The notes under the pieces: generated by a model
Seen by the model: only the letters and a program-made list of their open reading frames with translations
Database searches by the model: none
Told to the model about the DNA's origin: nothing
Part shown: positions 16,989 through 57,608 of the stretch, in pieces
Position numbering within the stretch: the stretch's first letter is position 1
Layout of the letters: the number at the start of each line of letters is the position of its first letter
Origin: Marsupella aquatica
Lineage: Eukaryota; Plantae; Marchantiophyta
Direction: 5' to 3'
DNA: 64,000 nucleotides
NCBI GenBank assembly: GCA_973895155.1
Contig: OZ316894.1
Coordinates: 16,954,463 to 17,018,462, forward strand
Translations under genes and position numbers: made by a program

Positions 16989-17311
16989 CTGCTTCACGAT
17001 CTCAACCAGAGTTTCACGCATCTGGTTAAGCGAATCTGTGTCAATGCAAGACAGTTCTGTTGGAGCAGAATGAGACAACTTCGAGTTCCCTGCTTCACGA
17101 CCTCAACCAGAGTTTCACGAATCAATGTCAATGCAACACAATTCTGTTGGAGCAGAATGAGACAACTTCGAGTCCACTGCTTCACGACCTCAACCAGAGT
17201 TTCACGAATCTATGTCAATACAAGACAGTTAGGTTGGAGCAGAATGAGACAACTTCGAGTTCACTGCATCACGCCCTCAACCAGAGTTTCACAAATCTGT
17301 GTCAATGCAAG
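16989..17311. repeat. 87-bp tandem repeat, ~3.5 copies
   Basis: CTGCTTCACGACCTCAACCAGAGTTTCACGAATC...GTTGGAGCAGAATGAGACAACTTCGAGT at ~16989, 17090, 17177 and 17264 (the first unit is longer). Confidence 0.9.
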
Positions 17312-18449
17312 AGTTGCAGTTACTGTTTTTCTGGCTTCACAGTAGTGATCATCCATCATTTCACCCAGTCCCTTGACATATAACTCTAATGATGAAGTGC
17401 AGCGTACCAAGATTCTCCAGAAGTAGAGGTGAGATTCTGAGAAATTTAGAAAGTCGAGGCAAAGTGAAGAAACAGCTAGGAGCTGCTAGTTCTCGGAGTT
17501 GCTAGTGATAGTCGGGGAGATCATTGATCTGAGATGAAGTGTTAGCTTTGCTGAAATGACCATATTGTCCAGTCTCCTTTATTTGACAATGTCATCACAT
17601 TAGACCTCTGGCGGAACTACATTCAGTCAGTAAAGCTCACTATTTCTCACCAACGAAAGGCCAATGAAGAGTAGCCACGGTACAATACATCCGAGCTGCC
17701 TTAGATAGAATCCACTTAAGTGGGAATAAAAAATATGCGAACATGCTACAGAGGACATGAAAGAGCAATTATCAAAATCACCAGATACAATACGCATCTG
17801 ATTTGCACGAGGCAGGCAGCCAATTCCTCTTGGCAATCTTTTACGAAATATCAAACTCCGTTCATTGGAAACCGTGTCCTGCTAACTTCTCAAACCATTC
17901 TTTCTTCTACAGGCCATGGCGACACAACAGCCCCAACCTCTTCTACCCTATCTTACAACCTTTTGGGGTTAACCCAATTAAATAGCATGAGCATACATAA
18001 CCAATTAGTCTGAGAGAAGCAGGAGACAAAACTCCCTCCCAACGATTGGCCACCTTGCTCATGGTGATCATCTGTACACGTTGAAGATTCGGCTAGAAAG
18101 CCCTGCAGCAATTCTTCAGTGACGGAGAATAAGGCTACATCGAGGACTGGACCTTGTTGACACAAGCTTGCCGATCTGCAGGTGCTAGCTGTCTGCATCA
18201 TTTGGCCGGGCTCCTCAGTTGAGTAAGTGGGGTGCTAGCGTTGTCAGCAAGTGAATTGTTTTTGACTCGCTGAATACACTAGCAGGCTTCGATGGTGGAT
18301 AAAAATTTCAGATCTGCAGGTGGTAGCCCCTTCCACCGCATACGTTCTCTGCTTTGGAATATTGAGATGAACGTCAACGAAGCAATTTTGTCCTAGTCCT
18401 TTTCACTAAAATACACAGGGCACAGTCCCGACAATGCTTCCAAAACATA

Positions 18450-30411: not shown

Positions 30412-31113
30412 ATAGGTTGTCTCTACAATGATTGATAAAATGTCTTGAGACAATCTTCAAGACAACCTGTTGTTTTTCTGCCACTTGAGGTCACTAAGAA
30501 GCATTTAGGCATTACTTGTCTGAAAGACTTATTAAAAAAAACTCAGAGATGAAGGCTAATAAGAGCAATAGGTTGTCTCTACAATGATTGATAAAATGCC
30601 TTGAGACAATCTTCAAGACAACCTGTTATTTTTCTGCCACTTGAGGTCACTAAGAAGCATTTAGGCATGACTTGTCTGAAAGACTTATTAAAAAAAACTC
30701 AGAGATGAAGGCTGATAAGAGCAATAGGTTGTCTCTACAATGATTGATAAAATGCCTTGAGACAATCTTCAAGACAACCTGTTATTTTTCTGCCACTTGA
30801 GGTCACTAAGAAGCATTTTGGCATAACTTATCTGAAAGACTTATTAAAAAAACTCGGAGATGAAGGCTGATAAGAGCAATAGGTTGTCTCTACAATGATT
30901 GATAAAATGCCTTGAGACAATCTTCAAGACAACCTGTTATTTTTCTGCCACTTGAGGTCACTAAGAAGCATTTTGGCATAACTTATCTGAAAGACTTATT
31001 AAAAAAACTCAGAGATGAAGGATAATAAGAGCAAGGTCACTAAGAAGCATTTTGGCATTACTTGTCTGAAAGACTTATTAACAAAAAACTCAGAGATGAA
31101 GGCTAATAAAAGC
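30412..31113. repeat. 155-156-bp tandem repeat, 4 full units plus 1 half unit
   Basis: Near-identical units start with ATAGGTTGTCTCTACAATGATTG at 30412, 30568, 30724 and 30879; a truncated unit starts at ~31035. Confidence 0.95.
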
Positions 31114-35882: not shown

Positions 35883-36506
35883 TCACCCGACATCGGCGTT
35901 CTTTCCCAATTCCGACATCGTTTTGAACGAACGAACACCGATGAATGCTGCACGAGTGCTCGGGAACCAGCGGAACGACCAACAACTCACCCCACATCGG
36001 CGTTCTTTCCCAATTCCCACATCGTTTTGAACGAACGAACACCGATGATGCTGCACGAGTGCTCGGTAACCAGCGGAACGACCAACAACTCACCCGACAT
36101 CGGCGTTCTTTCCCAATTCCCACATCGTTTTGAACGAACGAAAACCGATGAATGCTGCACGAGTGCTCAGGAACCAGCGGAACGACCAACAACTCACCCG
36201 ACATCGGCGTTCTTTCCCAATTCCCACATCGTTTTGAACGAACGAACACCGATGAATGCTGCACGAGTGCTCGGGAACCAGCGGAACGACCAACAACTCA
36301 CCCGACATCGGCGTTCTTTCCCAATTCCCACATCGTTTTGAACGAACGAACACCGATGAATGCTGCACGAGTGCTCGGGAATCAGCGGAACGACCAACAA
36401 CTCACCCGACATCGACGTTCTTTCCCAATTCCCACATCGTTTTGAACGAACGAACACCGATGAATGCTGCACGAGTGCTCGGGAACCAGCGGAACAACCA
36501 ACAACT
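35883..36506. repeat. 104-bp tandem array (6 copies) inside a larger degenerate compound repeat (~35715-37040) upstream of GTE1
   Basis: Unit TCACCCGACATCGGCGTTCTTTCCCAATTCCCACATCGTTTTGAACGAACGAACACCGATGAATGCTGCACGAGTGCTCGGGAACCAGCGGAACGACCAACAAC at ~35883, 35987, 36090, 36194, 36298 and 36402; diverged units at ~36650 and ~36930. Confidence 0.95.
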
Positions 36507-37266
36507 CTCTCTCTCATGGAGTAGGGCGCCGTGAACACCAAGAGAGCCGATAGGAAGTCAGCGCAGAGGATAATCATCACCCTCACTAATAAGAAGCGAC
36601 ACACTCAAAAATTACCAAATGACACGCAACCTTCTCGTTGAGGAGTCATCACCCGACATCCGCAGTCTTTGCCAATTCCCACACCGTTTTGAACGAACTA
36701 ACACCGACGAATGCTGCTCGAGCAGAGAATAATCATCACCCTCAATAGTAAGGAGCGACACAATCACACAAAGATGACAAATGACATGCAAGCTTCGCGT
36801 CGAGGAGTCATCACCCGACAACCCCGACATCCAGAATGCTGCTCGAGCAGAAGATAATCATTACTGTTAAAAGCGACACAATCACACAAAGATGACCAAA
36901 TGACATTGCAAGCTTCGCGTCGAGGAGTCATCACCCGTCATCCCCGTTCTTTACCAATTTCCGCATCGCTTTGAAGCAACGAACACCGATGAATGCTCGG
37001 CAGCCAGCGAAACGACCAACAAGCGAAAAACCATGGAGAAGGGAATCACGCAGTGTTGCCGATTACACTACGCTCCCGGTCTATCATCGGCTCTACTCTA
37101 TTCTCATTAGCTGCTGTGCTCTTCTCACCTGCAACAGATACTCGATTCGCTTCACGTCAACCGTCCACTCCACTGCACGCCGAATTCTGCGATCACAGAT
37201 TCACAAGGTATTCACCACTCACTCACCATTCACCTCCTGACGCAAACTCAAACTCAAACTCAGCTG

Positions 37267-41399: not shown

Positions 41400-42040
41400 T
41401 GTCTTTTGCCTCACTTTGACCTTGCTTGACCTCTTTCCCTCCCCTCGACATCTTGCCATCACCTGGACATCTTTGCTTCTCCTCGATATCTGGCCCTTGC
41501 CTGGACATCTTTGCATCTCCTTGACATCTTGCCCTTGCCTCGACATCTTCGCATCTCCTTAACATTTTTGCCTCTCCTTGACATCTTTCCCTCCCCTTGA
41601 CATCTTGTCCTCGCCTGGACATCTTTGTCTCTCCTCGACATTTTTGTCTCTCCTCAACATCTTGCCCTTGCCTGGACATCTTTGCCTCTCCTTGACATCT
41701 CTCCCTCCTCTCTACATCTTGCCCTCTCCTGGACATCTTTGCCTCTCCTTGACATCTTGCCCTCGCCTCAACATCTTTGCATCTCCTTGCGGGTCTCCTC
41801 GACATCTTACCCTCTCCTTGACATTTTTGTCTCTCCTCGACATCTTGCCCTCGCCTCAACATCTTTGCCTCTCCTTGACATCTTGCCCTCGCTTGTACAT
41901 CTTTGCCTCTCCTCAACATCTGGCCCTTGCCTCGACATCTTTGCATCTCCTTGACATCTTACCCTCTTCTTGATATCTTTGTCTCTCCTTGACATCTTGC
42001 CCTTGCCTCAACATCTTGCCCCACCTCACTCAACATCTTT
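41400..42040. repeat. ~19-20-bp minisatellite (GACATCTT core), ~30 units
   Basis: Alternating CTTGACATCTTTGCCTCTC and CCTCGACATCTTGCCCTTG type units; related units at ~40970-41090. Confidence 0.92.
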
Positions 42041-42069
42041 CATGCAACGCACGGGCATGGGGCTAGTAC

Positions 42070-43100
42070 CTCGTTAGTAATGTCTTGATAAAATCTCTCA
42101 ATGTCACATTCATTGGAAACTAAACTAGAGCAAAATTAGAAACTCATCATTTCCTTAGTACTTGACAAAATCTATCAATGTTAAGTTCATTGGAAAGCTA
42201 GAGAAATTAAGATACTCATGATCTCTCTACTTCTTGACGAATACTTCCAATGTCACACAGTAGAAAACTAGAGAGATTGGAAACCTCATGATCTCTTTAG
42301 TACCGTGACAAAATGTGACATAAAATTTGTCAATCTCGGACTCAATGTTGAAAAGTTAAAAGAATTCATGAACTCATGATCAAAATTTCTTATTGTCACA
42401 CTCATTGGAAAGACAAAGATATTCAAAAACTCATATGGTACTTGACAAAAATTGTCAATCCGAGGCTCATTGGAAACCCTTTCTCTATTAAGAGACATCA
42501 AAATCCCGTCACCGTCACAAACTTAGCCATTGCAAATTGATTTCTTTGATTACGTTGTCATTGCTTGTCCGCAACGCTTGCTTCTTGACTTGAATTGTTC
42601 GCGTCCCTCCAGGCTCCAACGAGCTCACTCTGAACATAGGCTGACACCAAAAGCAACCTCTGTGTCAAAGAAACAATGGTTGGTCTCCCCCTCACACAAT
42701 AGTTTTCTTAAATTAAAAAAACTACAAAACCTGTATGTGAAGTGATGGCTCGTCCATTTTGTGCATTCTTCCCACCAAAATGACAAGCACCCTTTTGCCA
42801 ACAGCTGAGTGATGTTCTCTGGTCTATCTTGTGGGGGTAATGTTCAATGTAACTCACAAACAATCAATAAGGAATGGTAGAAACACGATTTCTCCAATGT
42901 GTGAGAAAACCAAAACATTCTTACACATTCAACCTTTGGTTTGATGAACCAAAGAGATCATCTCAACCAGATCGATATCTTCTATCTTTTCAAACGTTCT
43001 CTTTGGTATGAGCACACACCAAGATCATCGGGAGACTCAAAACCATTGATTACCACCTTGAAAAAAGTTGATTTCACTTTATCACACACATTCGACATGG
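42070..43100 (+). repeat. ~1-kb dispersed repeat, copy 2
   Basis: Direct-orientation homolog of 27740-28840; the spurious - strand ORFs at 28009 and 42286 align over their length. Confidence 0.85.
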
Positions 43101-43214
43101 GGGTACACGGAGTAATTATTTGCAGTGGCATGGGGCTAGTACATGTTTATAAAATATGGATATTTAAATTGGACTATCTTGAACAAAGAGACATAACATC
43201 ATAAGGAAACACCC

Positions 43215-43428
43215 TTAAACCACACCTGCCCCTATAAAGGGCTACGGGTAACCCGTAGCTCTCATTTTGAAGAGTACAAGTTCAGAAATGGACTTTGAGT
43301 TCCACAAAAGGTGTTGACTGCAAAAGCTTTTTTTTGGCAAATACTCCACAAAAGGTGCTAATGTTCCACCTTTTATGGTGAGTAGTGAGCCATGGAATGA
43401 GACTTTTATAGTGGCAGGTGTGGTTTAA
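43215..43428 (+). mobile_element. Tourist/PIF-Harbinger-like MITE, family A (214 bp)
   Basis: 24-bp IR TTAAACCACACCTGCCCCTATAAA and TTTATAGTGGCAGGTGTGGTTTAA (1 mismatch), with TTA/TAA-type ends. Confidence 0.8.
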
Positions 43429-43982
43429 TGCACCTAACACACCGTGAGTCCAAAGTTGGAGCCCTTTCCACTCAGTCCATAGTACTCAGGGCTAATCAAA
43501 AGAAACAATGGGCCACATCGTGTAACGCCACCCTTCTTAGTCCAGCCAGCTTTGCAGATGGCAGTTTCGAATTAATTTCCGTCTGATTTTGTCTTTGGAA
43601 AGTTCATCGGAGAACCTGAAGGATCTCATCAATCAATCCTCGTGTAAACTTCTGCAAGATGTTTACATTTGCATCTGGCGCTTTGCCATTTTCACCTAAT
43701 TTGGTCGCACCACTGTAGTAGTGTAGTGTCCTCAGGCGTGCCGAGCAGAGCCAAGGAGAGCCGAGGAGCGTTACTTAGCCTGCTAGACTCTTGAGGTGTG
43801 TTCTTTTCGAAGTGAACTCAATTGGGTTGTTTTCTTGGCATCAGGGCGTTTTTTTGGACTTGAAAGGCATCTGTGCGTTCTGTGCTGAAGTACTTTTGTC
43901 CAATTTGGGTCTGGCAGTCGTGGACGACCCAAGCCTGAGGTTACTGTCGAAGGAGATCACTTGCTTTAAGTTGCGTCGTCTT

Positions 43983-44090
43983 CATTGAAAGTAAGTATTC
44001 GTTCTTGGAGCTATGAGAACAGAACGTTAGTGGGGTGCCACCATTGAAAGTAAGTATTCGTTCTTGGAGCTATCAGAACAGAACGTTAGT
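43983..44090. repeat. 59-bp-period tandem duplication of a 5'-UTR splice donor
   Basis: CATTGAAA|GTAAGTATTCGTTCTTGGAGCTAT(G/C)AGAACAGAACGTTAGT occurs twice. Confidence 0.85.
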
Positions 44091-44765
44091 CATGTGCCAC
44101 CGTTGAAATAGCCATCTCTGTGTATTTTGCTATGGGCGAAACACAACTTGAAGTTCATTTAGAATGCTTCTCCGGCCACCGCACCTTAACAACATGACAA
44201 TAAGTAGGAGGAGTTCTGAAATACCAACATATGTTAGATGTAAATCGTTTACCTCGATGAAGGAGTGTGATGCTTGCCTGCAGTTTGTGATCAGAGGGCT
44301 TTGGAGATAGTTTGGAGCTCTGGAATGCCAAGTTCTGCAGCATGTCCAGTGTCGTACAAGTAACACACTTACGTTTGCATCTGCCAACTGTAGCTCTAAT
44401 TTCTAGGTGAAACTCGTAATTAGAAATTAGAGCTCTGGAATGCCAAGTTCTAATTTCGAGATGAAATTTCAATGATACTCAACGCTTTAAAAGTAACCTA
44501 ATTCAATTGTCTCATTTCCGTCCAGACTTTATGTACCGAAGTTATTGAGTGAGAAGACTCCACCCATGCAACGAATATCGGAACATGTATTCTTTCTTAT
44601 ACCCTGGCTAGGTTGCGTGCTGATTTGCGGTGGATGGGGTCAATGTCTAATTCGCAGACTGCGGTCAATTGACTGTAGGACGAAGAGTTCCAGCGTCAGA
44701 AGGCGGAGTACTTCTTGAAATCGTTGAGGGATTCGAAGTTTGAGTCATCGAGGGATTCGGAATTG

Positions 44766-46641
44766 ATGGCCTCACAAAAACTGTGGTTGAGAACTCTGCC
44801 GCTGCTGGTGTTCCTCCTTGTGCTCCCGATTCCTCTTTGTCGTGGGAAGTACGACAGACATGTTGTATCGGTGAGTTTTCATTACTTCGACAGCTCCAAC
44901 CAAAGCGTATTAGTTCGGCTGATAATTCTTAGCAAAGGCATTGCTTAAGTTTGGGGTAGAACAGTTTGCCTGGTGCGATATTTTCTATGTCGTGAAGTCT
45001 CCTGCGTTACTTCAAGGTTGCGAGATTTTGAGTCTACTACTGCTTGGGCACGCTGACAATTATCAATGATTCCGCACAAAGCTTTACCTTGGTACACTAT
45101 TTGGGATGCAGATACATACCACCCCAAATTTCATTTCTAGACCGTATTCTGCACAGCTGGAAAATAATTATCTTGAATCATTGAAGGAAAGAAAACCCAT
45201 CAGAGTAATCGTACAAGTTGAAAAGGATTAACCAAGGTCTGCAATGTCCAGAGTGAGGGCCCCCTGCTTGTGTGGCAGGCAAATGACATTCGAGAACTCT
45301 CTGCGGCCAGTGCTAGGGGGAGTGGGTACTGATGGAATGTGTTCAAACCTGCTTTTTGTAGGATAAAGATATGACGAGGAGGAAAGAGGTCTGCTATATT
45401 GATATTGACAAGTATGTTGTATATAATTCTCAACTGTGTCCTTAAGGGCACTCGCGGCATGTGCAAGTCAAGGGATATAAACCTTTTTTTCGCTCCATCA
45501 GAAATCTTCTCCTGTTTCGTTGTGTAGTTTCTGAAAGATTAGAAATTGGAGTTATTAAAAGTATGCAATTATAGCTTTATAAGCTGAGAAAATAGAATTG
45601 TAGCGGTCGACATTGCGATGAGCGTTGCAAATTGTGTCATTCACAGGCTTAGAAATCCTTTCGATCTACTGTCACTAGACTAGTGATCCATTTTACACTT
45701 ATTCACGTAGGTATCTCCCTATTTTCTGGCTTGTCAAATCTATCTTTCGTCTGTGATGGTGTTCCCGTATATCTTATGGAGGGTGAAGAATATTTTAACT
45801 TCTGTACTTCTGTTTCTATTTCTGTTTCTGTCATATGAGTCTCCCCTATTTAATTACGAATCTCTTACACAAGTTTTTAGTTATCTCAAGCGTAGGCATG
45901 GCTAGTAAGTGTAAAAATGGCAGGATATAATTATATTCTGGATGTGCCTTCCATGAATTGAATGAGTAAGCAAAATTCTTACCGTTTCTTTGTGATGGCA
46001 GTGGGTTATGGGGTAGAAGTTGTCGATCTTCTTGGACTGCAAAAGAGAACTGTGCTCTCCGATGTGTTTCACCTACATGCTATAATAGGATCTATGGCGA
46101 AGACCCTGTACATATTCTGCTCTTTGTTCAGTTCGAAAGTTTGGCAGAAGATGTGCATGTCGTTTTCAGAAAGCCTTTACTTGAAGCTACGCTGTACTAC
46201 AGATATCAGTAAAACTGCTTGGTTTGTACTCCTACAGAAAGTTCGGTGTTGAGGATCAACCGGTATGAAATAGTTTGTAGAATGTCGGGCAGAGTTGCAA
46301 AGTGGCATGTCCACAAGCCTATTGTGGAACCGGTTGCAAATATTGACTAACAAAATTGGTTTTGTCTGTAGCTTGAGGAGGGAGAAGTTGACTTTAGAAG
46401 GGGGCGAGAGTATCGAAATTGTTTACGGAGGTTTGTTGTAACTTTCAATCTGTTCCCGCATCATCTTTTGTAAACATTTGTTAATGTAGCCTTGCATGCA
46501 TAGTACAATTGTAGTAGTCCGTAATCTTGCATTTTGCAATAGTATTGTCATTCCGGGTTCTTCCCATCTTCCTGACTCAGCTTTTCACTCACGTTCTTCG
46601 ACTTCAGGGAACTCCTGAGCGAGGCAAAGGCCGTGAAGTGA
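44766..46641 (+). CDS. Putative small secreted peptide precursor, 3 coding exons, 65 aa
   Basis: Exons 44766-44870 (donor GTGAG), 46372-46430 (branch point GACTAAC, acceptor TGTAG) and 46608-46641 (acceptor TTCAG, TGA) join in frame to MASQKLWLRTLPLLVFLLVLPIPLCRGKYDRHVVSLEEGEVDFRRGREYRNCLRRELLSEAKAVK. Signal-peptide-like N-terminus; a leader exon with donor lies near 43990. Confidence 0.55.
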
Positions 46642-47255
46642 GACCTTCTCCCTCAATGACGAGATCGGCAATTACTTTTAACACGTTCAGCTAGGGAAAC
46701 TCTTCTAATTGATAGTGAATCTGAGGAGATTGTAAATACGATGCAATAATTAATTGTGGAGACTCATATCTAACTAGAAGACTTTCCGTAGTCAGTAGTA
46801 TTACAATACGCTAGCGATGAACAGAATTGGAGGCTTTCACAGGTCCTTCTGCTTTTCTCCATCACACATCCACAAGGGATGGAGATGCTCCCTCACTTTG
46901 AGCGCTTATCTTTCATTATCAATCTACCCTTGTAATCATTTGCCAATGCAAGTCAAGTTGCAAGTTGGATGCAAGAAGCTTATCAGACCATGCGTCTCAG
47001 AGTGTCCTGGTTATTGCTATGAGTAATCAGTCCAATATAGAGCACATTGAAAGATTCAATAGAAGTTAAGTTGGGTTGGGCGTTCACCAAGCTGCGCTTG
47101 CATTGTCCAAGATTCTTTCTGTACGCTTTACTGACACAACCAATAGGTAATTTCTATGTATGTTGTCATTCTCGATTGTTCTAACATCTGAGAGTGTAGA
47201 GAGCAGAAAGCGTCTAGGAGATGTCTAGTGAACTGGCATTGCTTTTCAACCAGTT

Positions 47256-48253
47256 TTATATGACAGCGCAATTTGCTAACCATGATTTGGAAAGGTGTCC
47301 AAGGCATTCTGATTCTCCCATAGAACGTGGATTTAATACGCGCAAAATTTCATGATTTGTTCCGAGATCAACGATCGATGTTTTAACTTTCAAGACATCT
47401 TCCCCACGTAAACATTGAGTCTGTGGGCTTTCAGCCATCCTATAGACATTGAATTTAGCTACATACTAGATTCCACTCACCGTCCCTGTGGATAGCCTCT
47501 AAGGTAGGGACCAAGATGATAGATATGAAAAAATGAACTTCGGGTTCTAGGTTTTTTCAGATTGACGGATTCATTTGCGTGCTGGAAGTAAAGTGAAAAA
47601 GTTTGGTAAAGAAATTTATAGAAATATATTGCACTGACATACAATGAGTTCGTCCGCCACAAGCAAGGCTAATTCAGTTAATCGAACGGTTTGCTGGAAT
47701 TTTCTGTGCATCTACTAGGGAGTGTTTCCGATACCCAGATGGGTAAACTCCGAGGGAGATGGCTTGTGGAGTTTTGGATGATAATTTCTTATAGCGCTAG
47801 GCTCGGAATTGGTGCCAACGTGATAGCTGTCGCTGTACTATCAGCGTTGTCAAACGGAGGTGTACTTTCCGACGCTTGAAATTTTGCGTCGGGTCTCATC
47901 TCCTGGATGTACTACTTCTTAAGTGGTGCGAGGATGGGCGTCTGGAACTTTTTATGCATAGATTGTCATGCTTGATTTCCAGGCTCTCTTGTTCCATATT
48001 CTCGTGCATAATTTTCAAGTTCTCAACCGCCGAAGCTAAAGCCTTCGAGTTCATTCCAATGTCGTTTTGGAGACGTAGCCTTTTCCTTCGATTTCGTCGA
48101 TAATTTGAAAGGATTTCCTACAGCCATCGCCTCATATGTGTAAGTCGTCTCTCAGGCAGAGGAATTGAGCAGGACTCTTATTCTAATGGCAACGTTTACC
48201 AATTCCGAAAGGCCATTGCCAATGATTGCAGACACTGCGCCGGATTCAACCAT
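47256..48253 (-). pseudogene. Possible decayed NLR fragment (CC/RPW8-like N-terminus and start of NB-ARC)
   Basis: Frameshifted pieces: MVESGAVSAIIGNGLSELVNVAIRI; CLRDDL; FQIIDEIEGK; KALASAVENLKIMHE; EDVLKVKTSIVDLGTNHEILRVL..MG, followed by a disrupted P-loop-like stretch. Resemblance judged by eye only. Confidence 0.3.
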
Positions 48254-48710
48254 AGCCGCGCTCTCCTCGATTCGCGATGACCTTCTCGAATATTTTCCCA
48301 CCCATTACCGTATATACAATCCAGCCCAACCTGCCCATTTACAATAAGTGGCAGCGATTCTATCGAGGGTGTCTGTCAAGAGAAGGAAGCTGTGAGCTCC
48401 CAGGCGTGCGAGGACTCCTGGTTGCTCGTCAAATTTCGACTCCTTGCAGCAATGTCTGTTTGATTTGAGAAAGCTAGCTTTGCCTGATTTCGTTCATGGA
48501 AGAGACTTGTCCCTAACGATCGGGAAGATAGACAAGCCCAGGCAAAGACCAAGATTTTGTATTGCCTCTCCATCAGAGTGTCGCCTCTCCATCAGAGTGT
48601 CGCCTCTCCACCAGAGTGTCCTCAATTCTCCCAATACTGTGTCCAGAAGCGGTAAAGAGTCGACAATCACGGCAGGGGAAAGCTACAGATCATAACAAGT
48701 GATTCACTAA

Positions 48711-50273
48711 TTATATCGAACGGCTTCGGGGGGTTTCCGCTTGTCCGTCTAGCTCCGACGAGGCCATCGCCATATCAGGTCGACCGTTTCCTTCTCCTGG
48801 CAAACCATCCTCTGACTCCTCCATCTCTTTCAACATCTTTCTCACCCCTTCCAGATGCTTGCCCACCGGTTCCCACAGCAAATCCTCCTGAAACATATCC
48901 GGAGCACTCATCCCATCCTTCCCTTGACAGAATCCCGCACAAGCCAGGAGTATAGGCTGCATGAGAACAGTTGGCAGGGGTAGCATGTCGCGCAGGGAAA
49001 ATATCACGTCTCGGCTCGTCCAAAACCGCTTGACGTGGGAGACGTACCCCGAGAAATTCCCGTGGGATCGCCACGGAACGAGCAGCATGCCTGGCAAGAA
49101 TTGGCGACGAGCGCCTTGGCGGGGGACGACGATCGAGCTACTACTTTCCATGGTGGGATCCGTAATACAACGCGCTAGGTCTGGTGTTCCTGCGAAGAGA
49201 TGAATGCCGCTCGTCGCGCGCGGATTGCATTCGATGGAGACGAGGCGGCCGTTATGGGTCTCCACAAAGTCGAATGCGAGCTGACCTGAAACTCCTGGGT
49301 GTGCGGCGACGATCTTCTCAACGTATGCGCGGATGCGTGGGTGTTCTACAGATTCGAAGTAGACGCACGAGCTGTCATCAAGTGTGTCTTTCACGGGGTA
49401 GACGGCATGCGCCCGGAGCTGGCCGTCGCGGATGATGGAGTAGCTGCAGTATCTCGATCCTGTGAGCCACTCCTGCGCAGTGTAGTGGATTTCGTCAGAA
49501 ATGGCCAATTCAGTTGCGCTCGGGAGCGGCTCTTCTGGTTTCAGGTGAAAGATGTTGCCTGAGGCGCGGCCAAACACCGGCTTCAACGCCCATTCCCTCG
49601 TGAGATCTAACATTCGAACGTCATTCATGCTGCGGCAGAGATAAGCTTCCGGGTAGTCGAGGCCGAGGCGTTTCAACAACCGGTTCATCTGCCACTTATC
49701 ATGCAGGCGGATGAGAGCACCGAAAGGTGGCGCAAATAGCCTGTCCAGGATGTCGCGGTCGTCGCATTCCGCAAGATGAAAAATCTCCTCGTGCAGCGGA
49801 ATGATCAGGTCAATCTGCTGGGCTTTGACTGTATTCTTCACGGCGGCGATGTATCCAGCGGCATTGTCACTCGGCGCAGGGACCCCGAAGCTCTTCTTCA
49901 CAGCCTTAGATGCCTTGCAAGCGTGAAAGTTCATAGGGTCGACTACGAAGATGGTATGCCCGGCCAGCTTGAGCTGCCGGGCCAGATCAATTGCCACGGG
50001 GAATCGTCCGTTCGAAAGGAGGATGTTGAGGGAACGGACACCCTGCGGCGTTTCTTTCTCCGTCTTCATTCTCTCGTTACATCGAGGAGTTGGGCTCTCG
50101 TGGAAAGGACGGATGGCAGAATTACTTCCAAGACTCTGGTTATTGTGATCAAGATATAAAAGGCTGGCCAGCAGAGGAGTCGGGGATTTCCATATGCACC
50201 TCGTCAGCGGCCCCACATACTCCGAGGATGATCGGCGAGACAGCCGTGTGATGATGTTTCTGAATCCATTCAT
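48711..50273 (-). CDS. Intronless ATP-grasp ligase-like protein of fungal/bacterial type (MysC-related clan), 520 aa, with a presequence-like N-terminal extension
   Basis: Single uninterrupted ORF, visibly more GC-rich than its flanks. Pre-ATP-grasp ILLSNGRFPVAIDLARQL..AGH...IDLIIPLHEE; ATP-grasp motifs LHDKW, ALKPVFGRAS, QEWLTG..YCSYS, GQLAFDFV and IECNPRATSG. Confidence 0.88.
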   Translation of the reverse strand: MNGFRNIITRLSRRSSSEYVGPLTRCIWKSPTPLLASLLYLDHNNQSLGSNSAIRPFHESPTPRCNERMKTEKETPQGVRSLNILLSNGRFPVAIDLARQLKLAGHTIFVVDPMNFHACKASKAVKKSFGVPAPSDNAAGYIAAVKNTVKAQQIDLIIPLHEEIFHLAECDDRDILDRLFAPPFGALIRLHDKWQMNRLLKRLGLDYPEAYLCRSMNDVRMLDLTREWALKPVFGRASGNIFHLKPEEPLPSATELAISDEIHYTAQEWLTGSRYCSYSIIRDGQLRAHAVYPVKDTLDDSSCVYFESVEHPRIRAYVEKIVAAHPGVSGQLAFDFVETHNGRLVSIECNPRATSGIHLFAGTPDLARCITDPTMESSSSIVVPRQGARRQFLPGMLLVPWRSHGNFSGYVSHVKRFWTSRDVIFSLRDMLPLPTVLMQPILLACAGFCQGKDGMSAPDMFQEDLLWEPVGKHLEGVRKMLKEMEESEDGLPGEGNGRPDMAMASSELDGQAETPRSRSI

Positions 50274-50439
50274 TTTGTTGCTCTCGAAGTACCTGCCCGA
50301 CGATCATCCTACACCCACAGATAAAAACCCATCGAAAGAGCCTTCCCCGGTGGAATCCACAATCCAGAGTACGGCGGTGACATCTCTCTGTGCATGCACT
50401 ACAAATGGTATCTCCACCTCCAAACACCGGGGATCGCCT

Positions 50440-50650
50440 TCCGGCACAACGTGTGCCATCCTCAATTGTTTCGCACATGACAAGTGCCATCCTCGATTCC
50501 TCGTTTACCCGCTCTAGTTTCCGATCCTCTTTCCAGGAAATTGAGCATGACAAGTGCCGTCTTCAATTCCTCACAACGCGCTCCAGTTTCCCCATCCTCT
50601 TTCCAGGCAATTGAACTTGACAAGTGCCATCCTCAGGTCCTCGTAATGTG
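50440..50650. repeat. Degenerate ~70-bp repeat upstream of the ATP-grasp gene
   Basis: GACAAGTGCC(A/G)TC(C/T)TC recurs at ~50479, 50549 and 50619, with CGCTC.AGTTTCC.ATCCTCTTTCCAGG in the first two units. Confidence 0.75.
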
Positions 50651-51009
50651 ATCTCTGATCCTTCATCGAGGAACGGAGATGACATGGAGCATCGAGAACT
50701 TGTACACATGGCGACAAAAGCGTGGACTTGAATCTGTCGGCCGCACTTTTCTCGTTGTCGAATTTTCCGGGTACACATTGTGCACCTGCCCAGAAAATCC
50801 CAGTTCCCACATACCTCCGGTTTTTCTTTAGGAGTTTGGTATTTTGCCATCCGGAGAGTGTCATCAAGAGCTCATGATTGTGCAGAACTAAATGACGGAT
50901 TGTGGGCAAAGCTGTTGTGGACGGAAGCTTCTCGTGGTAGTCGCAATAGGGCGTCTCAAATTTGGGCTTTGGGCCGAAGTTATTGATTTATGGTCCAACC
51001 CTGATCTCT

Positions 51010-51380
51010 GGTTATGGGACCTAGACCATTTTAGAAAACAAGGGGAGGTAGTATTGACCAAAAGGCAGGGGTTCTGGCCAATAAACCATTTCAAAGAAGG
51101 GGAAGTACAGTAGCATGAATGGTTGTGGGATCCAGTTCAGTTTAGAAAACAAGGGGAGGTACATAAGGCAGGGGTTTTTAAAGATGGGGAAGTAGCATTG
51201 ATGATTATGGGACCCAACTAACCATTTCAATAAACCAGGGGAGGTTGCATTGACTTGCCCCTGTAGGCAGGGGCTGACACGGGTTATGGCCAGTTAACCA
51301 ATATAAAAAAAAGGGAAGTAACATTGACCTACCCCATAAGGCAGAGGGTATAGGTCCCATAACCATTTTAAAACGAAGCA
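51010..51380. repeat. Degenerate tandem repeat
   Basis: Recurrent AACCATTT, AAAACAAGGGGAGGTA, GGGGAAGTA and AGGCAGGGG blocks. Confidence 0.65.
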
Positions 51381-52179
51381 TGTGCCCGATTGACACATCA
51401 GGCCCAGAGCTCACTTGCCTTCAAGTGCAGATTTCCCAATTTGTGCCAGAAGTTACAAGAAAATGATGAAGGTTCTTGGTTTGGTGTTGAGTCCTTATGG
51501 GAGCCAAAGATGACTCCCATAACTTCTGTGCAAGTCCCCATCACTTACAATAAGATGTTAGCCTAGTATCGTCAAGTTTTGAGATGCCTTCATTAAGAAA
51601 ACCTCGTTTCAGGGAGATCACACTACCAATGGGCAGTGACCCAATAAAGGGGAGGAAGACACAATTCCACTGGGAGAGGCCCAAGGAAGGACAGGAAACC
51701 AGCAGCTTTCCAAAAACAACGTGTTCAAGGAAAAGGTTTTAGGGTTTTATAAAAATTAAAAAAAAGGAAGGAGAGGAAAACTTCATGTAGATCAAAGAGC
51801 CAAAAAGCCCAAGAATCCCTTGAATTCAAATGTTTGATATGGTTTGCAACTTATCCTTGCAATAGGATGCTCCAATGGAACTCAAGGTTTACTAGTATGC
51901 TTGGACAGACTTTGTAACAGGGCAACAATGTCCAAACTTCAACTTAAAAATTTTCTTGGAAAGCACATCTTATACTAGAAGCATCTTTCTCCAATCCTGA
52001 GGGTTTTGATTATAGAATATTTTAGGTACCTACTGGGACAGGTACCCATTTTTAAAGTCAACAGTATATAGCAATCTGGCTACCTCAAAAGCACTCTCAG
52101 CCCTCATTGGATAATTTTCCTGGCGACAGTCCATTAAAATCTTGAGAACCCAGCAACTAACCCTCTATTGCATAATCCC

Positions 52180-52405
52180 TTACAGATTTTAATTACTTTG
52201 TCACTAAAGATGTTCTAATTCATAATACTGTCATTGTTCTTTTTGTATTTATAAAAATGCCAGGGTTTTGTATACAGATGACAAGTTTACCAAAGTAACC
52301 AAGGAAACTACATACTGAAATTGTTGTATTTTTGTAAATACAAAAAAATAGTGGTAGTATTGTGAATTCAACCATCTTTAATGGCAATGTACTTAAAAGG
52401 TGTAA
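52180..52405. mobile_element. AT-rich foldback MITE with ~80-bp inverted arms
   Basis: TTACAGATTTTAATTACTTTGTCACTAAAGATG...TTTTTGTATTTATAAAAAT pairs imperfectly with ATTTTTGTAAATACAAAAA...CATCTTTAATGGCAATGTACTTAAAAGGTGTAA. Confidence 0.7.
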
Positions 52406-52551
52406 TCTCTTATCTAGTAACCAAAAACCTGAAAACCCAATAGCATATAGTGAATGGGTTGGACCTGAACTTTTGCATTTTGTTTACTCAGTTTAGTCTG
52501 GTGAAACACTTCTTACAACCCAATAGTGTTGGACGTGGTGTTGGAGATGCT

Positions 52552-52713
52552 CTTAAAACCGCCACTAGCCATGACAAAAACCTGGATCCACCAGGTTTTA
52601 CCATTAATAGTCATTTTCCTGAATTTATGGAGCAAGCTCAGGAGTGAAGTGGATATGGAAAAAGAAGGAAATGTTGGACACTTCCCTTTATATATGGCTA
52701 GTGGCGGCTTAAG
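52552..52713 (+). mobile_element. Tourist-like MITE, family B
   Basis: TIR CTTAAAACCGCCACTAGCCAT and ATGGCTAGTGGCGGCTTAAG. It abuts a PIF/Tourist-type end, TTGGAGATGCTCTTA (52541-52555). Confidence 0.7.
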
Positions 52714-54825
52714 ATTAGAAAGCCTGACTGCCCGAGGATTGCTCAGGCCCACTGTTGTTTCCCCACCCCTTGCCTCACCCCAAAAACTTTCCACTGCCAA
52801 GAGTCATAACCTAGAGGCTTCACTCTAGACCATAGGCTCCATAGTGTAGCTTTCTATCGCAAAACTATTAGTAAGATTTGTAGACTGAAATGTAAATGAT
52901 GAGTGTGGATTATCATCTTTTGAGTTGGACTTCTCCTTGACAGTCCTACAACTCAAGACCCACTTTGCTAATTAAAAAGGAGTTTGGGAAATCATTTTGC
53001 CAAATCCAAAGACATTTGAAAACATTATGAGTGCCAAAGGCAAGAGATTTCAATATGTCCTCAACTCGGTTAGGGAGCTATGATGTAAATACAGGCTAGA
53101 AATGGACACTTGGAAGGATTCAATGAGAAGCCAAAGCCTATATTTGGTTGCATGCTTAGAAGTGGAGTGAATGTAAGTCATACAGGTATGTGATTAGAGT
53201 GGACTAAGCAGGCCCTTGAAGCACAGCGTTTCTTTGACTTGCTATGTTTATAACTAAAATGGGCATAATTCCTACATGTATGAACCACTGTGGGCCTATA
53301 TTGGTCTAGCTGAGTGCAAGGCCAGTAACCCAAAGGTCTGTGGTTCTTTCCCAATGGCATCTGTGTCTTTCACTTCCATCATAGATTAGGATTGTTATTA
53401 ATCCACAGGACTTATTTAGCATTGTATTCTTATGATATGGTACTCAGCAAGGCATGCCAAAGTTGTCCCTGCCCATCTTGAGCTCTATTTCTGATCTTGC
53501 ATCATGCATAGCCTGCTGGGTGGTCTTGAATGGACCTCTTCAAGGACCCCCATGTTTGACACTTCAATGCTAAGTAAAGCTTTCATTTTGAGGAAAGAAT
53601 AATTAAATCATATATGTGTGGGATACAAATTTAGGCCCTTGATGGTGGTGGGCTTGGTTTGCCAAGTTTCTTTATGGTAGTTGATTGGTTTTATCATATT
53701 AATGTGTATTTTTTATTTACACGCTAGGTCATAACCCAGAGTGCTTTTAAGATTTACCAACTACACTGACCCAAGGTAGAGCATAATTATGGTATTTGCC
53801 AGATGACCCCACCCGGGATAGTTGCAGCTCGCCACCACGTCCAACTACCTTAGTGCTTGGTTGTGCTTGGTTACATTGCGCACCAACAGCAAACAACAGG
53901 TATTTTGAGTGGTAAAAATATGGCCAGTGCCTTGTGCAAGAAAGAAAAAGGTGATTGTGTAAATAGTAATGCTACAAGACAAAGGAATACAAACTCTACT
54001 GCATTAGTGCAACTGGTTTTGATTTTTTTGGTAGTTGAGCTATTTAGAAAACCTCCTGGAAAATTGAATCACACACTTACTCTAGAGTGTCTACAATCAC
54101 TACTGTAACTTTGACTCTACAGTACTTTGTGAATCACTTACAGTTGGCTCTCTCTAAGTGCACACTCCCGAGAATAAGCTTTTGATATGCACTTATGTAG
54201 GGTTTGTGCTGTCATCAGTGCAAAAACTTGGAATTTGCATGCATCAATAAGAGTGCACAGGTGCCTTGACATGCAATGGGCCTTCTGTTAGTTGGCATTC
54301 TCTTGACCTTCTTCCTGGCTTGTACATCTTTGCCCTAAATGAGATCCCCTACCCAGAAGTGCAAAATGTTTGCTCTACCTAGAAATGACATGTGCTTATT
54401 GTAACTGTAAGTCAAGGAATAGTGTGATTTGCCTCACTTATACAGGGTTTCACTCACACGGGTGCGTTCAGTGCAGCCTCATTGAACTATCAAAAAATGC
54501 AAAAAGATTTCAAAATGGTTGGCGAAGTAATGGATGGAACTGCCTTGCAATTATCCAAGTTTGCACTAATGGAGTGTGCAGTTATCAAGAGCTGACTGCA
54601 ACCTGGCTGGGCCACAATGCCCTTAGGTTTTGCACGTTCTCAAATCCCCATCTCTTACTCATAAGGGTTCATAACACTTATGGAGGGTTTACGCTCTTAT
54701 ATTTGCATTTAGTGCAGCCCAAATAAGTGGAAATGGTCGGGAAACACAAGGGATAACGGGACGCCTTGCAATTGTCCAAGATTTGCTGCACTTATAGAGA
54801 GCTCACTGTAACCTGCGAAACGCTT

Positions 54826-55043: not shown

Positions 55044-55822
55044 ATGACGGTAAAGCGCAGAAACGGAGGTCGCAACAAGCATGGCCGCGGTCATGTCAAC
55101 CCCATCCGCTGCTCCAACTGCGGTCGCTGCGTCCCCAAGGTTTGGATTCGATTCGTCCCGTCCTTACCCGTTCTTGTGCGCTTCTGTGGTTGTGAGGTAT
55201 GTCGTATTTCGTCGAGTTGAGAATGCGAGTGGGGGGACTGGAATGAACACTCTTGGAACGGCCATAGAAACCGTGTGATGTTTACACAGGGAAAGGGGGC
55301 TGTGTGATGGCGTGTGCAGGATAAGGCTGTGAAGCGGTTTTTGGTTCGTAACATTGTGGAACAAGCGGCAGTCAGAGATGTGCAGGAGGCTTGCGTCTAT
55401 GACGGTACTACATCCTTGATTTCGTCTCCCCTTACGTCTATTACCCTTGAGATTGAATTCTGGAGCGTTTCTACCCAAATTTTCACCCTATGCCTGTGGG
55501 TTTGTTTCCAGGATATACTCTGCCCAAGCTTTACGCTAAGATGCAGTACTGCGTTTCCTGTGCCATTCATTCTCACGTAGTTCGTGTGAGATCTCGCGAA
55601 GCACGCCGCATCCGTGAGCCCCCTCAGCGGTTCCGCCGCAAGGTAAGTTTCCACTTGGATGACTCCCAAATTGCGTAGCCGTACTGACATTGACGTAGAT
55701 TGCTCTTCAGAGTTTACTTCAGCACATCTTGACGATCGGCATTTGTTTTGGTGAAACAGGATGACACACCTGCCCGCCCAGCTCCAGGAGCTAAACCTGG
55801 AGGTCAAACCGGCGGTCGATGA
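55044..55822 (+). CDS. RPS26: 40S ribosomal protein S26 (eS26), 4 exons, 124 aa
   Basis: Exons 55044-55139, 55320-55404, 55512-55642 and 55760-55822: [53 protein letters not shown]...[43 protein letters not shown]. Confidence 0.97.
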
Positions 55823-57469
55823 AGTTGAAGATTAATTTTGTAGACCAGAAGGCCATCAGGGTCGTTTATTTTAGGTCACGGTTGTGGTCGAAGTCGGAGT
55901 CGAAAGACTATCATTGGAGGTGGTGATATAGGCAGCATCCAGTGCGTAGTGGTATTTCACCAAAGTCTAGCCTTCGTCACGGTGTCCCCCGGATTGATAA
56001 AAACGCGTTCTATTACGGAATCTAAGTTTGGTCTTGTTCTGATGCATGGCCTTTTCGCCCTAGTTCGGGGATTTTGAATTGAGAAGGAGTTCATCCTTGC
56101 ATGCACAGGATGAAACGCTTGGCTGCAGGTGGACCATCAGACAGGATTTAGTCCTACGAAACTCCGATGTTGCCTGAATTTAAGACATGGTTGATTCGTG
56201 ATGTTGAATGGACACCATCAGTGGCTAATTTATCTTCGCGCATAGTTCATATATTTGTTTAGGATCAATGCACGTGGAAAAGTGTGCTCGAGTTATGGGA
56301 AGATTTTCACTACAATCAGCAGCTATCAATGGACAGAGATCTGTTTTTACTTCACTTCGGCCCAACAGGTATACGATGCGCTCGATTTGTTATCCGAACT
56401 TGGTTGCAACTCACTCAATGAAAACTTCCTGAATTCGCTGAGTGATTAGGCAAGTATTGTATGTGAATAGTTTCCAACCATTCAGGCCAGCGTTACTGTT
56501 GGTTGTTGGATCAAGATCTACATGATTCTCTGCTGCCACTTTCTTTAATGATTCTAAATTTGAGGGCCGATTCTCACTGTTCCGAAAGGCTCTCCAGTTC
56601 AGCAGTTCGCCTGCGCGTCTCACCTTTACTTCCCTATGAAGGGTGGTGTTATATATACCTGGAAAATGTTCATTTCCAATCTCTGCCGCGCAATCAAAGT
56701 TTGTTTGACCGAAGTTGTAAATTTGCGAACTTATTCAAAGACCCGTTTCATCCCGCAGATGCATAATTCTCTATGTTCGTAAATCTGGATTGAGTGTGGC
56801 CATTCCTTAGGTTCAGACAAACCGTTTCATGTGTATAACCTCAGGTCAAAAGCACTCTGCTCTCTGATTTTGGGGTTTGTTTAGTACCTGTAGTCCTAGG
56901 GAGATATACTGGCGTGGTTGCTGGGGTTTTCCAGGAAGAGCAGTTGCGCAGACTACTTATGGATTGCATGGCCTACATCTCCAGAGTAGTGTGCTTCTGC
57001 ATACACTGGCTTAAGAATGTCGACATTCCAAAGTTTTCTTTGGAATTTACGTAACACTCGTGAAGAAGTGTCGACACAAGTCCAAATTTCATAAACTGTG
57101 GAAACCGCTCCTGTTAACTCAAATAAACTATATGGGGAGGCTCTAAAAAATTGATCAATCCTGCAATCAACCGTCCTGCAGGTAAGTCACGAAACGGAGG
57201 GGCGGTTTAGCAATGAGCTCGAGTAGGTACGATCACCCCCTCACACAGGTAAGTCGTGAAACTGAGGGTGCCTTAGCAAAGAGCTCGAGTGGCCACGCAA
57301 AGATCGCTCTAAGCTGCCAATGCCATGACCAGTGACCGCAGACATGTTATTGCGAGTCACGCAGCTGCCATGGCCTGCACCGCTGCCCCAACACTATTGA
57401 TATTCTGGTCCTCTTGTTTGTTGTCAACAACGAGAGAATTTTGGCATTTCATCTGACTCAATTCTGTTT

Positions 57470-57608
57470 TTAATCCACCACTGGGTCACATAATTGGAGA
57501 CTTCTCCCTTTTTCACATTTCTCTCCTCTACCATGAGACTTTGCTCCACAATTTCAGGTGAAACCTGGTGGATCCATCCAGGTTTTGTCATGGACAGTGG
57601 CGCTTGAA
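57470..57608 (-). mobile_element. Tourist-like MITE, family B, diverged inverted copy
   Basis: The reverse complement shares GCCACT.CCATGACAAAA(A)CCTGGAT..CCACCAGGTTT and CCTGAA.TT.TGGAGCAA with 52552-52713. Confidence 0.6.

What the first reader, a model, noticed from the sequence alone, without database searches (positions are those of the whole stretch)
48711..50273. Intronless microbial-type ATP-grasp ligase in a plant genome, apparently fitted with an organellar presequence (candidate domesticated horizontal transfer)
Seen: a 520-aa intron-free, GC-richer ORF lying among intron-rich plant genes, with intact ATP-grasp motifs (LKP, QEW, FDFV, IECNPR). Established knowledge: the GRxPVAxDLAR...PxxEE...NPRATSG signature is typical of bacterial and fungal stand-alone ATP-grasp ligases. 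That family is related to the mycosporine enzyme MysC and, as I recall, occurs in bacterial KAS-III/MBL/F390-synthetase-like clusters. It is not a standard seed-plant enzyme. Seen: the first ~68 aa (before a second Met at 50069) are R/S/L-rich and acid-poor (MNGFRNIITRLSRRSSS...AIRPFHES), like a mitochondrial presequence. Inference: a transferred amide/imine-forming ligase retargeted to an organelle, possibly with two isoforms, making an unknown metabolite. No partner mys genes are present in this window.
Basis: partly seen in the sequence, partly recalled or inferred. Interest (0 to 1): 0.8.

Follow-up and report, generated by a model that had tools for sequence, protein, structure and literature searches.

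The report
Fungal ligase adopted by leafy liverworts
A plant genome, likely a leafy liverwort's, holds an intact intron-free gene for a predicted ATP-using ligase of unknown product that likely came from a fungus and was then duplicated; this copy has changed residues in its predicted substrate region and an N-terminal extension, also seen in one relative, that likely directs it to an organelle.

Summary
The ORF is real: 520 aa, no intron, full ATP-grasp fold predicted, catalytic-type residues intact, and joined to a spliced neighbouring gene in one contig. Its closest named relatives are Calypogeia fissa proteins (77-78% and 62-65%), then fungi (43-56%), then bacteria (up to 38%). Plant copies form one clade (100/99-100) with two paralogs, A and B, inside a 100/100 clade of mostly fungi. 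The tree alone does not prove nesting (AU p 0.124). However, all 6 full-length plant rows share a derived valine with exactly 7 of 122 other eukaryote rows, a clade that includes the lichen fungus Watsoniomyces. This copy is paralog B: it has lost two near-invariant aromatic residues and gained a 3-residue insertion. Its 68-aa extension aligns with the 71-aa extension of an unnamed clade-B relative (0 of 116 controls score as well), but C. fissa copies are annotated without one, so targeting is about even odds. It is related to MysC (25%) but is not a MysC and has no mys neighbours. Fungus-to-bryophyte transfer is a well-known kind of event; the enzyme family is uncharacterised. Interest 0.5.

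The parts
48711..50273 (-). Long ORF, 520 aa, ATP-grasp ligase of plant paralog clade B
50070..50273 (-). N-terminal extension, residues 1-68; basic, acid-poor first 20 residues with a predicted helix at 4-13; candidate organellar presequence
   Evidence: aligns with the 71-aa extension of P0224/P0276
50067..50069 (-). Second in-frame ATG (Met69), equivalent to the start of the C. fissa P0122 protein and of clade A proteins
48807..50039 (-). Folded core, residues 79-489: three-part ATP-grasp fold plus C-terminal helical region that carries the clade-B changes
48711..48806 (-). Unconserved, low-confidence acidic tail, residues 490-520, and stop codon
50149..50307 (-). Out-of-frame upstream ORF (52 codons) that overlaps ATG1 and ends before ATG2; further out-of-frame ATGs at 50332, 50383, 50395
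   Evidence: role untested
48631..50445 (-). Stretch covered by two contigs, about 9% diverged, of run X1 from another organism (a run with spliced contigs elsewhere): likely transcript span of the ortholog
44710..46430 (+). Flanking intron-bearing DUF4787 gene (end approximate), on the same 8178-base contig of run X2 as the ORF
55044..55850 (+). Flanking RPS26 gene with three spliced GT..AG introns (end approximate)

Best explanation
This is an intact chromosomal gene of a plant, likely a leafy liverwort, for a predicted ATP-dependent carbon-nitrogen ligase that was likely acquired from an ascomycete fungus, duplicated in the plant lineage, and in this copy likely given a new substrate preference and an organelle-targeting N-terminus. 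Shown: the open frame, its linkage to a spliced neighbour, the two plant paralog clades A and B, the intact nucleotide- and metal-binding type residues, the clade-B substitutions, and a similar extension in one relative. Inferred history: a bacterial stand-alone form (nearest sampled: Chlamydiae/Legionellales-type genomes) entered microbial eukaryotes, spread in fungi, and passed once, without introns, from a fungus near the Watsoniomyces (Lichinomycetes) clade to a liverwort ancestor (about 0.85 for a fungal donor, 0.55 for that clade). Inferred chemistry: Mg-ATP phosphorylates an acidic oxygen of a small molecule and an amino-acid amine displaces the phosphate. I favour the MysC-type variant, an enol of a 1,3-dicarbonyl turned into an enaminone conjugate (about 0.4), over a plain amide (about 0.35), because MysC is the only characterised family-level relative found and most bacterial homologs sit beside a KAS III, which makes beta-keto compounds. 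Inferred cell biology: ATG1 gives a form imported into mitochondria or plastids and ATG2 a cytosolic form (about 0.55 that the extension is translated and targets).
For: Linkage: one X2 contig spans 44044-52221 with 0 differences at the depth of its neighbours; X5, another organism and study, covers the whole ORF in one contig with 32 differences. Relatives: of 120 listed hits, 55 carry an organism name: 2 Calypogeia fissa, 52 fungi, 1 amoebozoan, no other plant or alga. Trees: plant clade 100/99 within a 100/100 eukaryote clade; same in 180 rows; plants plus two unnamed protist-like rows rejected, AU p 0.031. Derived character: V399 in 6 of 6 plant rows and 7 of 122 other eukaryote rows, all 7 in the Watsoniomyces clade; W in 108; Y/F in 31 of 40 bacteria; that clade is the ML sister of plants. 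Enzyme: fold Z 23.7 over 305 residues to ATP-grasp enzymes; K193, K231, D335, E348, N350, R352 kept. Clade-B change: F121 (123 of 128 eukaryote rows) to A; Y446 (122 of 128) to A/C; 3-residue insertion near 435. Extension: global score 37.5 to P0224's extension, reached by 0 of 5000 shuffles and 0 of 116 control ORFs (best 17.5); both keep the second Met. Expression hint: X1 has spliced joints at both neighbours and contigs over 48631-50445. KAS III beside 57 of 80 bacterial genome loci. MysC mechanism: PMC10666671, passages.
Against: The base of the eukaryote clade is unresolved; plants as sister to all other eukaryote rows is not rejected (AU p 0.124); the plant-Watsoniomyces branch has only 47/86 support, only 1 of its 7 rows is named, and that record is a metagenome-assembled genome. 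65 of the 120 listed hits are unnamed and 256 weaker hits were not shown. All four C. fissa proteins and P0003 start at or after Met2; their upstream DNA could not be read. The local-alignment test of the extension is weaker (p 0.012); P0224/P0276 are one cluster and stop at 184 aa, so may be a broken gene. An in-frame ATG 60 or more codons upstream arises at 2.4-3.6% of random window positions. Four out-of-frame ATGs lie in the X1-covered leader. X1's contig over 49409-50445 has 9 gap letters, net -7, at places not shown; one could break the extension's frame. Of 29 codons with X1 differences that were shown (a partial list), 9 are synonymous and 20 not: weak constraint. The 13 bacterial loci nearest the eukaryotes lack KAS III, and the 10 fungal-type loci scanned show no conserved cluster, so the substrate argument is indirect.
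Confidence: 0.55

Rival explanations
1. The transfer from a fungus is right but the protein starts at Met69 and is cytosolic; the upstream frame is open leader sequence, shared with P0224 only because leader DNA is inherited.
For: C. fissa B proteins and all clade A proteins start at or after Met2; only 11 of 230 proteins with the start motif have over 35 residues before it; out-of-frame upstream ATGs; 68 open codons have about 15% chance at local composition; the X1 contig has a net -7 gap somewhere in 49409-50445.
Against: Extension of nearly the same length, same start and similar first 18 residues in a relative whose core differs by 22%; both pass a presequence-like filter that 4 of 116 controls pass (filter set after seeing the sequences); ATG1 has an A-rich context.
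Confidence: 0.35
2. The gene is an ancient eukaryotic gene inherited vertically and lost in most plants and algae.
For: AU test does not reject plants as sister to all other eukaryote rows (p 0.124); the family also occurs in an amoebozoan and unnamed protist-like rows; some green algae have a MysC-related ATP-grasp (PMC7826186, section 9; not compared here).
Against: No named alga, moss, Marchantia or vascular plant among 55 named hits; plant-fungal identity up to 56% with short internal branches; derived V399 shared with one fungal clade.
Confidence: 0.06
3. It is a plant MysC making a mycosporine sunscreen from 4-deoxygadusol.
For: Best NCBIfam model is PRK06849, which the Nostoc MysC passes; shared motifs.
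Against: 254.7 bits against a cut-off of 406; 25% identity to MysC against 54% to a fungal and 37% to a chlamydial homolog; no MysA/B/D match in the window or in 164 other loci.
Confidence: 0.07
4. Paralog B is a redundant copy under relaxed selection, drifting toward loss, and its substitutions reflect decay.
For: 20 of 29 shown codon differences to the X1 ortholog are non-synonymous (partial list); near-invariant aromatics lost; P0224/P0276 are truncated.
Against: Frame and catalytic-type residues intact in the window, both C. fissa copies and the X5 contig's length; window-C. fissa identity in clade B (79%) equals that within clade A (78%); the same replacements are kept across species.
Confidence: 0.12
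5. The ORF is fungal contamination assembled into the plant scaffold.
For: Higher GC than the flanks; fungal-type sequence.
Against: Single contig to a spliced neighbour at equal depth; near-identical copy in a second organism and study; orthologs on 12-67 Mb contigs of C. fissa.
Confidence: 0.01

Closest known systems
MysC, mycosporine-glycine synthase (NCBIfam PRK06849 / NF005315; Nostoc sp. HK-01 plasmid copy, locus L005; mechanism in PMC10666671, passages)
   Same: Best family model; same ATP-grasp motifs and domain order.
   Different: 25% identity, below the model's cut-off, separate clade, no mysA/B/D neighbours; substrate unknown.
Uncharacterised fungal stand-alone ATP-grasp proteins (Pfam PF02655; Watsoniomyces, Tuber, Botryobasidium, Aspergillus, chytrids)
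   Same: 43-56% identity over the whole core, open single frame, same clade.
   Different: Plant clade B has F121A, Y446A/C, a 3-residue insertion and, in two lineages, a basic N-terminal extension.
Bacterial KAS III (PRK07204) - ATP-grasp - OleD-like reductase - MBL hydrolase - F390-synthetase-like (TIGR02304) - GNAT cluster
   Same: Its ATP-grasp is a 28-37% identical homolog; cluster seen in most of 80 genome loci.
   Different: None of the partners lies in the window or beside the fungal-type loci; the bacteria nearest to eukaryotes are stand-alone or have the GNAT only.
Fungus-to-bryophyte gene transfers (fruit-body lectins, NAS, EUPF; PMC12513842 passages, PMC11906373 passages, PMC12454661 abstract)
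   Same: Short, intron-poor fungal-type gene fixed among plant genes in a bryophyte lineage.
   Different: Here the family has no known function in any organism, and one paralog likely gained an organellar address.
L-amino acid ligases (PDB 3vot, 4wd3), PylC (4ffl), PurD and PurK
   Same: Same fold, Foldseek E about 1e-13, Z 21-24.
   Different: 10-18% identity; rows are tied in Z, so no function carries over.

Membership tests
ATP-grasp superfamily | Three-part ATP-grasp fold | tested here: met
   AlphaFold2 model pTM 0.71; Z 23.7, rmsd 3.2 over 305 residues; Pfam PF02655 above cut-off
ATP-grasp superfamily | Conserved lysines for nucleotide and acidic/Asn metal ligands (roles recalled from the family, not from a call) | tested here: met
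   K193, K231, E268, D335, E348, N350, R352 present and conserved
ATP-grasp superfamily | ATP-dependent ligation activity | not testable with these tools
   needs an assay
MysC (PRK06849 equivalog) | Score above the curated cut-off of 406 bits | tested here: not met
   254.7 bits; Nostoc MysC 560
MysC (PRK06849 equivalog) | Clustered with mysA and mysB | tested here: not met
   No tblastn match in the window or 164 other loci; the rest of the genome was not available
MysC (PRK06849 equivalog) | Converts 4-deoxygadusol and glycine to mycosporine-glycine | not testable with these tools
   needs an assay
Bacterial KAS III/MBL/F390 cluster ATP-grasp | Partner genes adjacent | tested here: not met
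   No partner match in the 64-kb window at E 1e-5
Fungus-to-plant horizontal transfer | Physically integrated among host genes | tested here: met
Fungus-to-plant horizontal transfer | Closest non-plant relatives fungal; absent from other plant lineages | tested here: met
   52 of 53 named non-plant hits are fungi, no other named plant in the best 120 of 376; unnamed and unlisted hits limit this
Fungus-to-plant horizontal transfer | Statistically supported nesting inside fungi | tested here: inconclusive
   ML trees nest it, AU p 0.124; shared derived V399 favours nesting
Organellar presequence | Basic, acid-poor, Ser/Thr-rich first 20-30 residues with an amphipathic helix | tested here: met
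   simple filter, no trained predictor available
Organellar presequence | Conserved in orthologs | tested here: inconclusive
   present in P0224/P0276, not annotated in C. fissa P0002/P0122
Organellar presequence | Translated from ATG1, imported and cleaved | not testable with these tools
   needs footprints, GFP fusion or import assay

The most novel reading that the evidence does not exclude
A MysC-like enaminone-forming ligase taken from a lichen-type ascomycete was duplicated in leafy liverworts; one copy rebuilt its substrate pocket and gained an organellar presequence with a two-start switch, creating an undescribed amino-acid-conjugation reaction inside liverwort mitochondria or plastids, and offering the first handle on an enzyme family spread through fungi and chlamydia-like bacteria with no known reaction.
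Probability: 0.2. Interest if true: 0.75.

Novelty: new variant of a known kind. Interest (0 to 1): 0.5.

Why it matters
It would be a compact case of how a foreign enzyme is domesticated: transfer, duplication, change of the predicted substrate region and a new subcellular address, with paralog A as the built-in ancestral control. The family occurs in chytrids, Dikarya, an amoebozoan and many bacteria, and none of my ten literature searches turned up a characterised member closer than MysC, so an A/B/fungal enzyme comparison could reveal a new reaction and a new liverwort metabolite. The kind of event, a fungal gene in a bryophyte, is common, which caps the surprise.

Tried and rejected
No whole genome is held for the window, so paralog number, mys genes and cluster partners elsewhere in the genome were not searched. 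No RNA holder is on record for the stretch; X1 is a guess by the tool, though it shows spliced joints. The first metagenome scan with the clade-B alignment confirmed no locus, so the DNA behind P0224 was not obtained; the second returned fungal-type, protist-like and bacterial loci, none at plant-clade identity. Two searches for short relatives of the extension found only fungal-type fragments and missed P0224 itself, so they are insensitive. The extension had no match in PDB sequences at E 10 and no usable Atlas hit; its source is unknown. Sequence search of PDB with the whole protein gave nothing, and with the profile only weak ATP-grasp hits. Retroposition as the cause of intron absence was rejected. 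A conserved fungal gene cluster was looked for in 10 loci (89 ORFs of 150 aa or more) and not found. A conserved neighbour of the chlamydia-type genes was looked for in 91 of 167 ORFs from 24 loci: mostly unrelated genes, in some loci two unannotated ORFs plus the GNAT. Literature: searches returned 0 papers; others returned listings with nothing on this gene. Iyer 2009 (PMC3268129) is not held. The HGT tables of PMC12513842 are too large to read and may already list this family; three supplements of PMC11906373 hold no ATP-grasp term, one was unreadable. PMC12632600, PMC12419801 and PMC12235509 (passages) concern other ATP-grasp families or MysC clusters. Earlier-finding look-ups by sequence, place and words found nothing on this gene.

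Full report
Observation. The finding's coordinates hold one open frame on the minus strand, 50273 to 48711, 520 residues, with a second in-frame ATG at 50069. It lies in the most GC-rich 1-kb bin of the window (56.8%). Pfam calls ATP-grasp_3 above its cut-off; the best NCBIfam model is PRK06849 at 254.7 bits, below its cut-off of 406. An AlphaFold2 model from a 19-row alignment is confident over most of residues 79-489 and low-confidence over 1-74 and 492-520, with a helix at 4-13. It matches ATP-grasp enzymes throughout (Foldseek E about 1e-13; Z 21-24) at 10-18% identity, with no single enzyme standing out. K193, K231, D335, E348, N350 and R352 are present; four of them are invariant in all 128 eukaryote and 40 bacterial rows aligned. 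That these bind nucleotide and metal is recalled family knowledge.

Is it in the plant genome? Yes. One contig of run X2 spans 44044-52221 with no difference and the depth of its neighbours, joining the ORF to a DUF4787 gene whose introns are spliced out in run X1. X2 may be the window's own source. Its exon scores highest against entries I recall as plant ribosomes. Runs X4 and X5, another organism and study, hold the ORF at about 1-2% difference, X5 in one contig. Orthologs lie on 12-67 Mb contigs of Calypogeia fissa, a leafy liverwort. The host is therefore likely a leafy liverwort; two unchecked earlier notes on this genome say the same. Run X1, from a third organism, has GT..AG joints at both neighbours and two contigs about 9% diverged over 48631-50445. 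That suggests the ortholog is transcribed, leader included, but an intronless gene cannot show splicing and the tool only guesses that the run is RNA.

Relatives. Of 376 hits the best 120 were listed; 55 carry an organism name: 2 C. fissa (77% and 65%), 52 fungi (chytrids, Basidiomycota, Ascomycota; 43-56%; assignment of genera to fungi is mine from knowledge, except Watsoniomyces) and the amoebozoan Planoprotostelium. No other plant or alga is named. Bacterial homologs reach 28-38%. A 180-row FastTree and a 52-row IQ-TREE mixture tree agree: plant sequences are one clade (100/99) of two paralogs, A (P0003, P0004, P0123) and B (window, P0002, P0122, fragment P0224; fragments P0199 and P0226 on its stem), inside a 100/100 eukaryote clade whose nearest bacteria are Chlamydiae- and Legionellales-type (the smaller trees use 52 and 42 of the 180 rows, chosen by me to cover each group, fragments left out). 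Diverged contigs whose loose ends read like the clade-A start occur in X3 and X4, and X1 holds three paralogs (my reading of tables 7 and 8).

Direction of transfer. The base of the eukaryote clade is a polytomy, and a tree with plants sister to all other eukaryote rows is not rejected (AU p 0.124). Plants grouped with two unnamed protist-like rows is rejected (p 0.031). A character argument adds weight: at residue 399, 108 of 122 non-plant eukaryote rows have W and 31 of 40 bacteria Y or F, whereas all 6 full-length plant rows have V in a V-P-x-x-S-H motif, as do exactly 7 other rows, a 100/100 clade that contains Watsoniomyces obsoletus (Lichinomycetes). That clade is the ML sister of the plants when bacteria are left out, with weak support (47/86). 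Only one of its seven rows is named, from a metagenome-assembled genome. I put a fungal donor at about 0.85 and this clade at about 0.55. Intron absence needs no special explanation: 15 of 15 full-length eukaryote-type loci checked are open from the first motif to CNPR.

What changed in this copy. Clade A keeps the fungal consensus. Clade B replaces F121 (F in 123 of 128 eukaryote rows) by A and Y446 (122 of 128) by A or C, and inserts three residues near 435. Whether these line the substrate pocket is inferred from their position in the N-terminal and C-terminal parts, not measured. Against a tidy story, the 29 codons with X1 differences that the tool displayed are 9 synonymous and 20 non-synonymous; the list is partial and some rows overlap a paralog contig, but it shows no strong constraint.

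The N-terminal extension. My first reading was an open leader, since C. fissa proteins, P0003 and nearly all fungi start near Met69 (11 of 230 proteins have over 35 residues before the first motif). The representative search changed this: P0224 and its cluster mate P0276, unnamed JGI proteins 78% identical in the core, carry a 71-residue extension before their own second Met. It aligns end to end with the window's (score 37.5; 0 of 5000 shuffles; local test p 0.012; best of 116 control ORFs 17.5). Both are basic and acid-poor with a mildly hydrophobic stretch near 27-43, and pass a simple filter that 4 of 116 controls pass; I set that filter after seeing the sequences. PMC12531127 (passages) reports that positive charge in the first 20 residues drives mitochondrial import in Marchantia and that added serines shift a protein toward the plastid, so 5-7 Ser/Thr here leave the organelle open. 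Against: one lineage only; P0224/P0276 stop at 184 residues (intron or break, DNA not available); an upstream in-frame ATG arises by chance at 2.4-3.6% of positions; four out-of-frame ATGs lie in the likely leader, one opening a frame that overlaps ATG1 and ends before ATG2; and X1's contig has 9 gap letters, net -7, at places not shown. About 0.55 that the extension is a working presequence.

Likely reaction. But the 13 loci nearest to the eukaryotes have none of the first four and one has the GNAT, and fungal-type loci show no conserved cluster, so the eukaryotic form likely works alone on host metabolites. The Nostoc MysC passes PRK06849 (560 bits) and is 25% identical to the window protein; no MysA, MysB or MysD match lies in the window or 164 other loci. 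MysC phosphorylates the C3 hydroxyl of 4-deoxygadusol and replaces it with glycine (PMC10666671, passages). I therefore favour ATP-driven conjugation of an amino acid to an enolisable 1,3-dicarbonyl (about 0.4) over a plain amide bond (about 0.35). This is inference; no substrate is identified.

Novelty. PMC12513842 (passages) counts 1,809 horizontally acquired families in streptophytes, 229 per bryophyte on average, typically short and intron-poor; its tables could not be read and may list this one. Ten literature searches found no account of this gene or of a characterised member of its fungal family. PMC7826186 (passages, section 9) describes a MysC-related ATP-grasp in algal mycosporine clusters; I did not obtain those sequences. 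Verdict: a real, likely fungal-derived, duplicated and diverged liverwort enzyme with a plausible new address; a variant of a known kind, interest 0.5.

Noticed in passing
window 44710-46430 (+): Small intron-bearing gene with a DUF4787 domain, spliced in run X1, convergent with the ligase gene.
   Followed up: partly
window 48593-48732 and 50252-50620: Run X5 (and X4) show two haplotypes of similar depth in the flanks, one identical to the window and one with 13-base deletions, as from an allopolyploid or mixed sample.
   Followed up: no
window 42000-43430, 52187-52800, 57498-57576: High-copy repeats with depth 50 to over 1000 times the flanks and opposite-strand joints between 52591-52605 and 57558-57563; likely small transposons.
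   Followed up: no
window 41428-42021, 35883-36507, 30412-31034, 17031-17312: Tandem arrays: 19 bp x 31.6, 104 bp x 6.0, 156 bp x 4.0, 87 bp x 3.2.
   Followed up: no
window 50475-50644 and 48564-48620: A 70-bp unit x 2.4 just upstream of the likely transcript start and a 19-bp unit x 3 just downstream of the stop.
   Followed up: no
L028 7448-10517, L031, L035, L040, L046, L047, L094: Chlamydia-type loci place the ATP-grasp gene near two ORFs without Pfam match and the cluster-type GNAT: a possible minimal module.
   Followed up: partly
L006 4457-5455, L012 7692-8909, protein P0040: An Abhydrolase_3 gene is adjacent in 2 of 10 fungal-type loci and fused in a Morchella gene model; L008 has an adjacent lactonase-type MBL gene.
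   Followed up: partly
trees: The fungal gene tree conflicts with taxonomy (Schizophyllum with Orbilia; Saitoella with Planoprotostelium and unnamed rows), suggesting further transfers among eukaryotes.
   Followed up: no
proteins P0199, P0224, P0226: Plant-clade fragments from JGI contigs begin or end abruptly with unrelated residues, which may mark introns gained in other bryophyte lineages; their DNA was not obtained.
   Followed up: partly
L119, L131, L164 at 11280: Some Paenibacillus clusters hold a second ATP-grasp ORF of this family after the F390-like gene.
   Followed up: no
L029 7220-8200: A sterol-methyltransferase-like gene lies next to the ATP-grasp gene on a 599-kb metagenome contig.
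   Followed up: no
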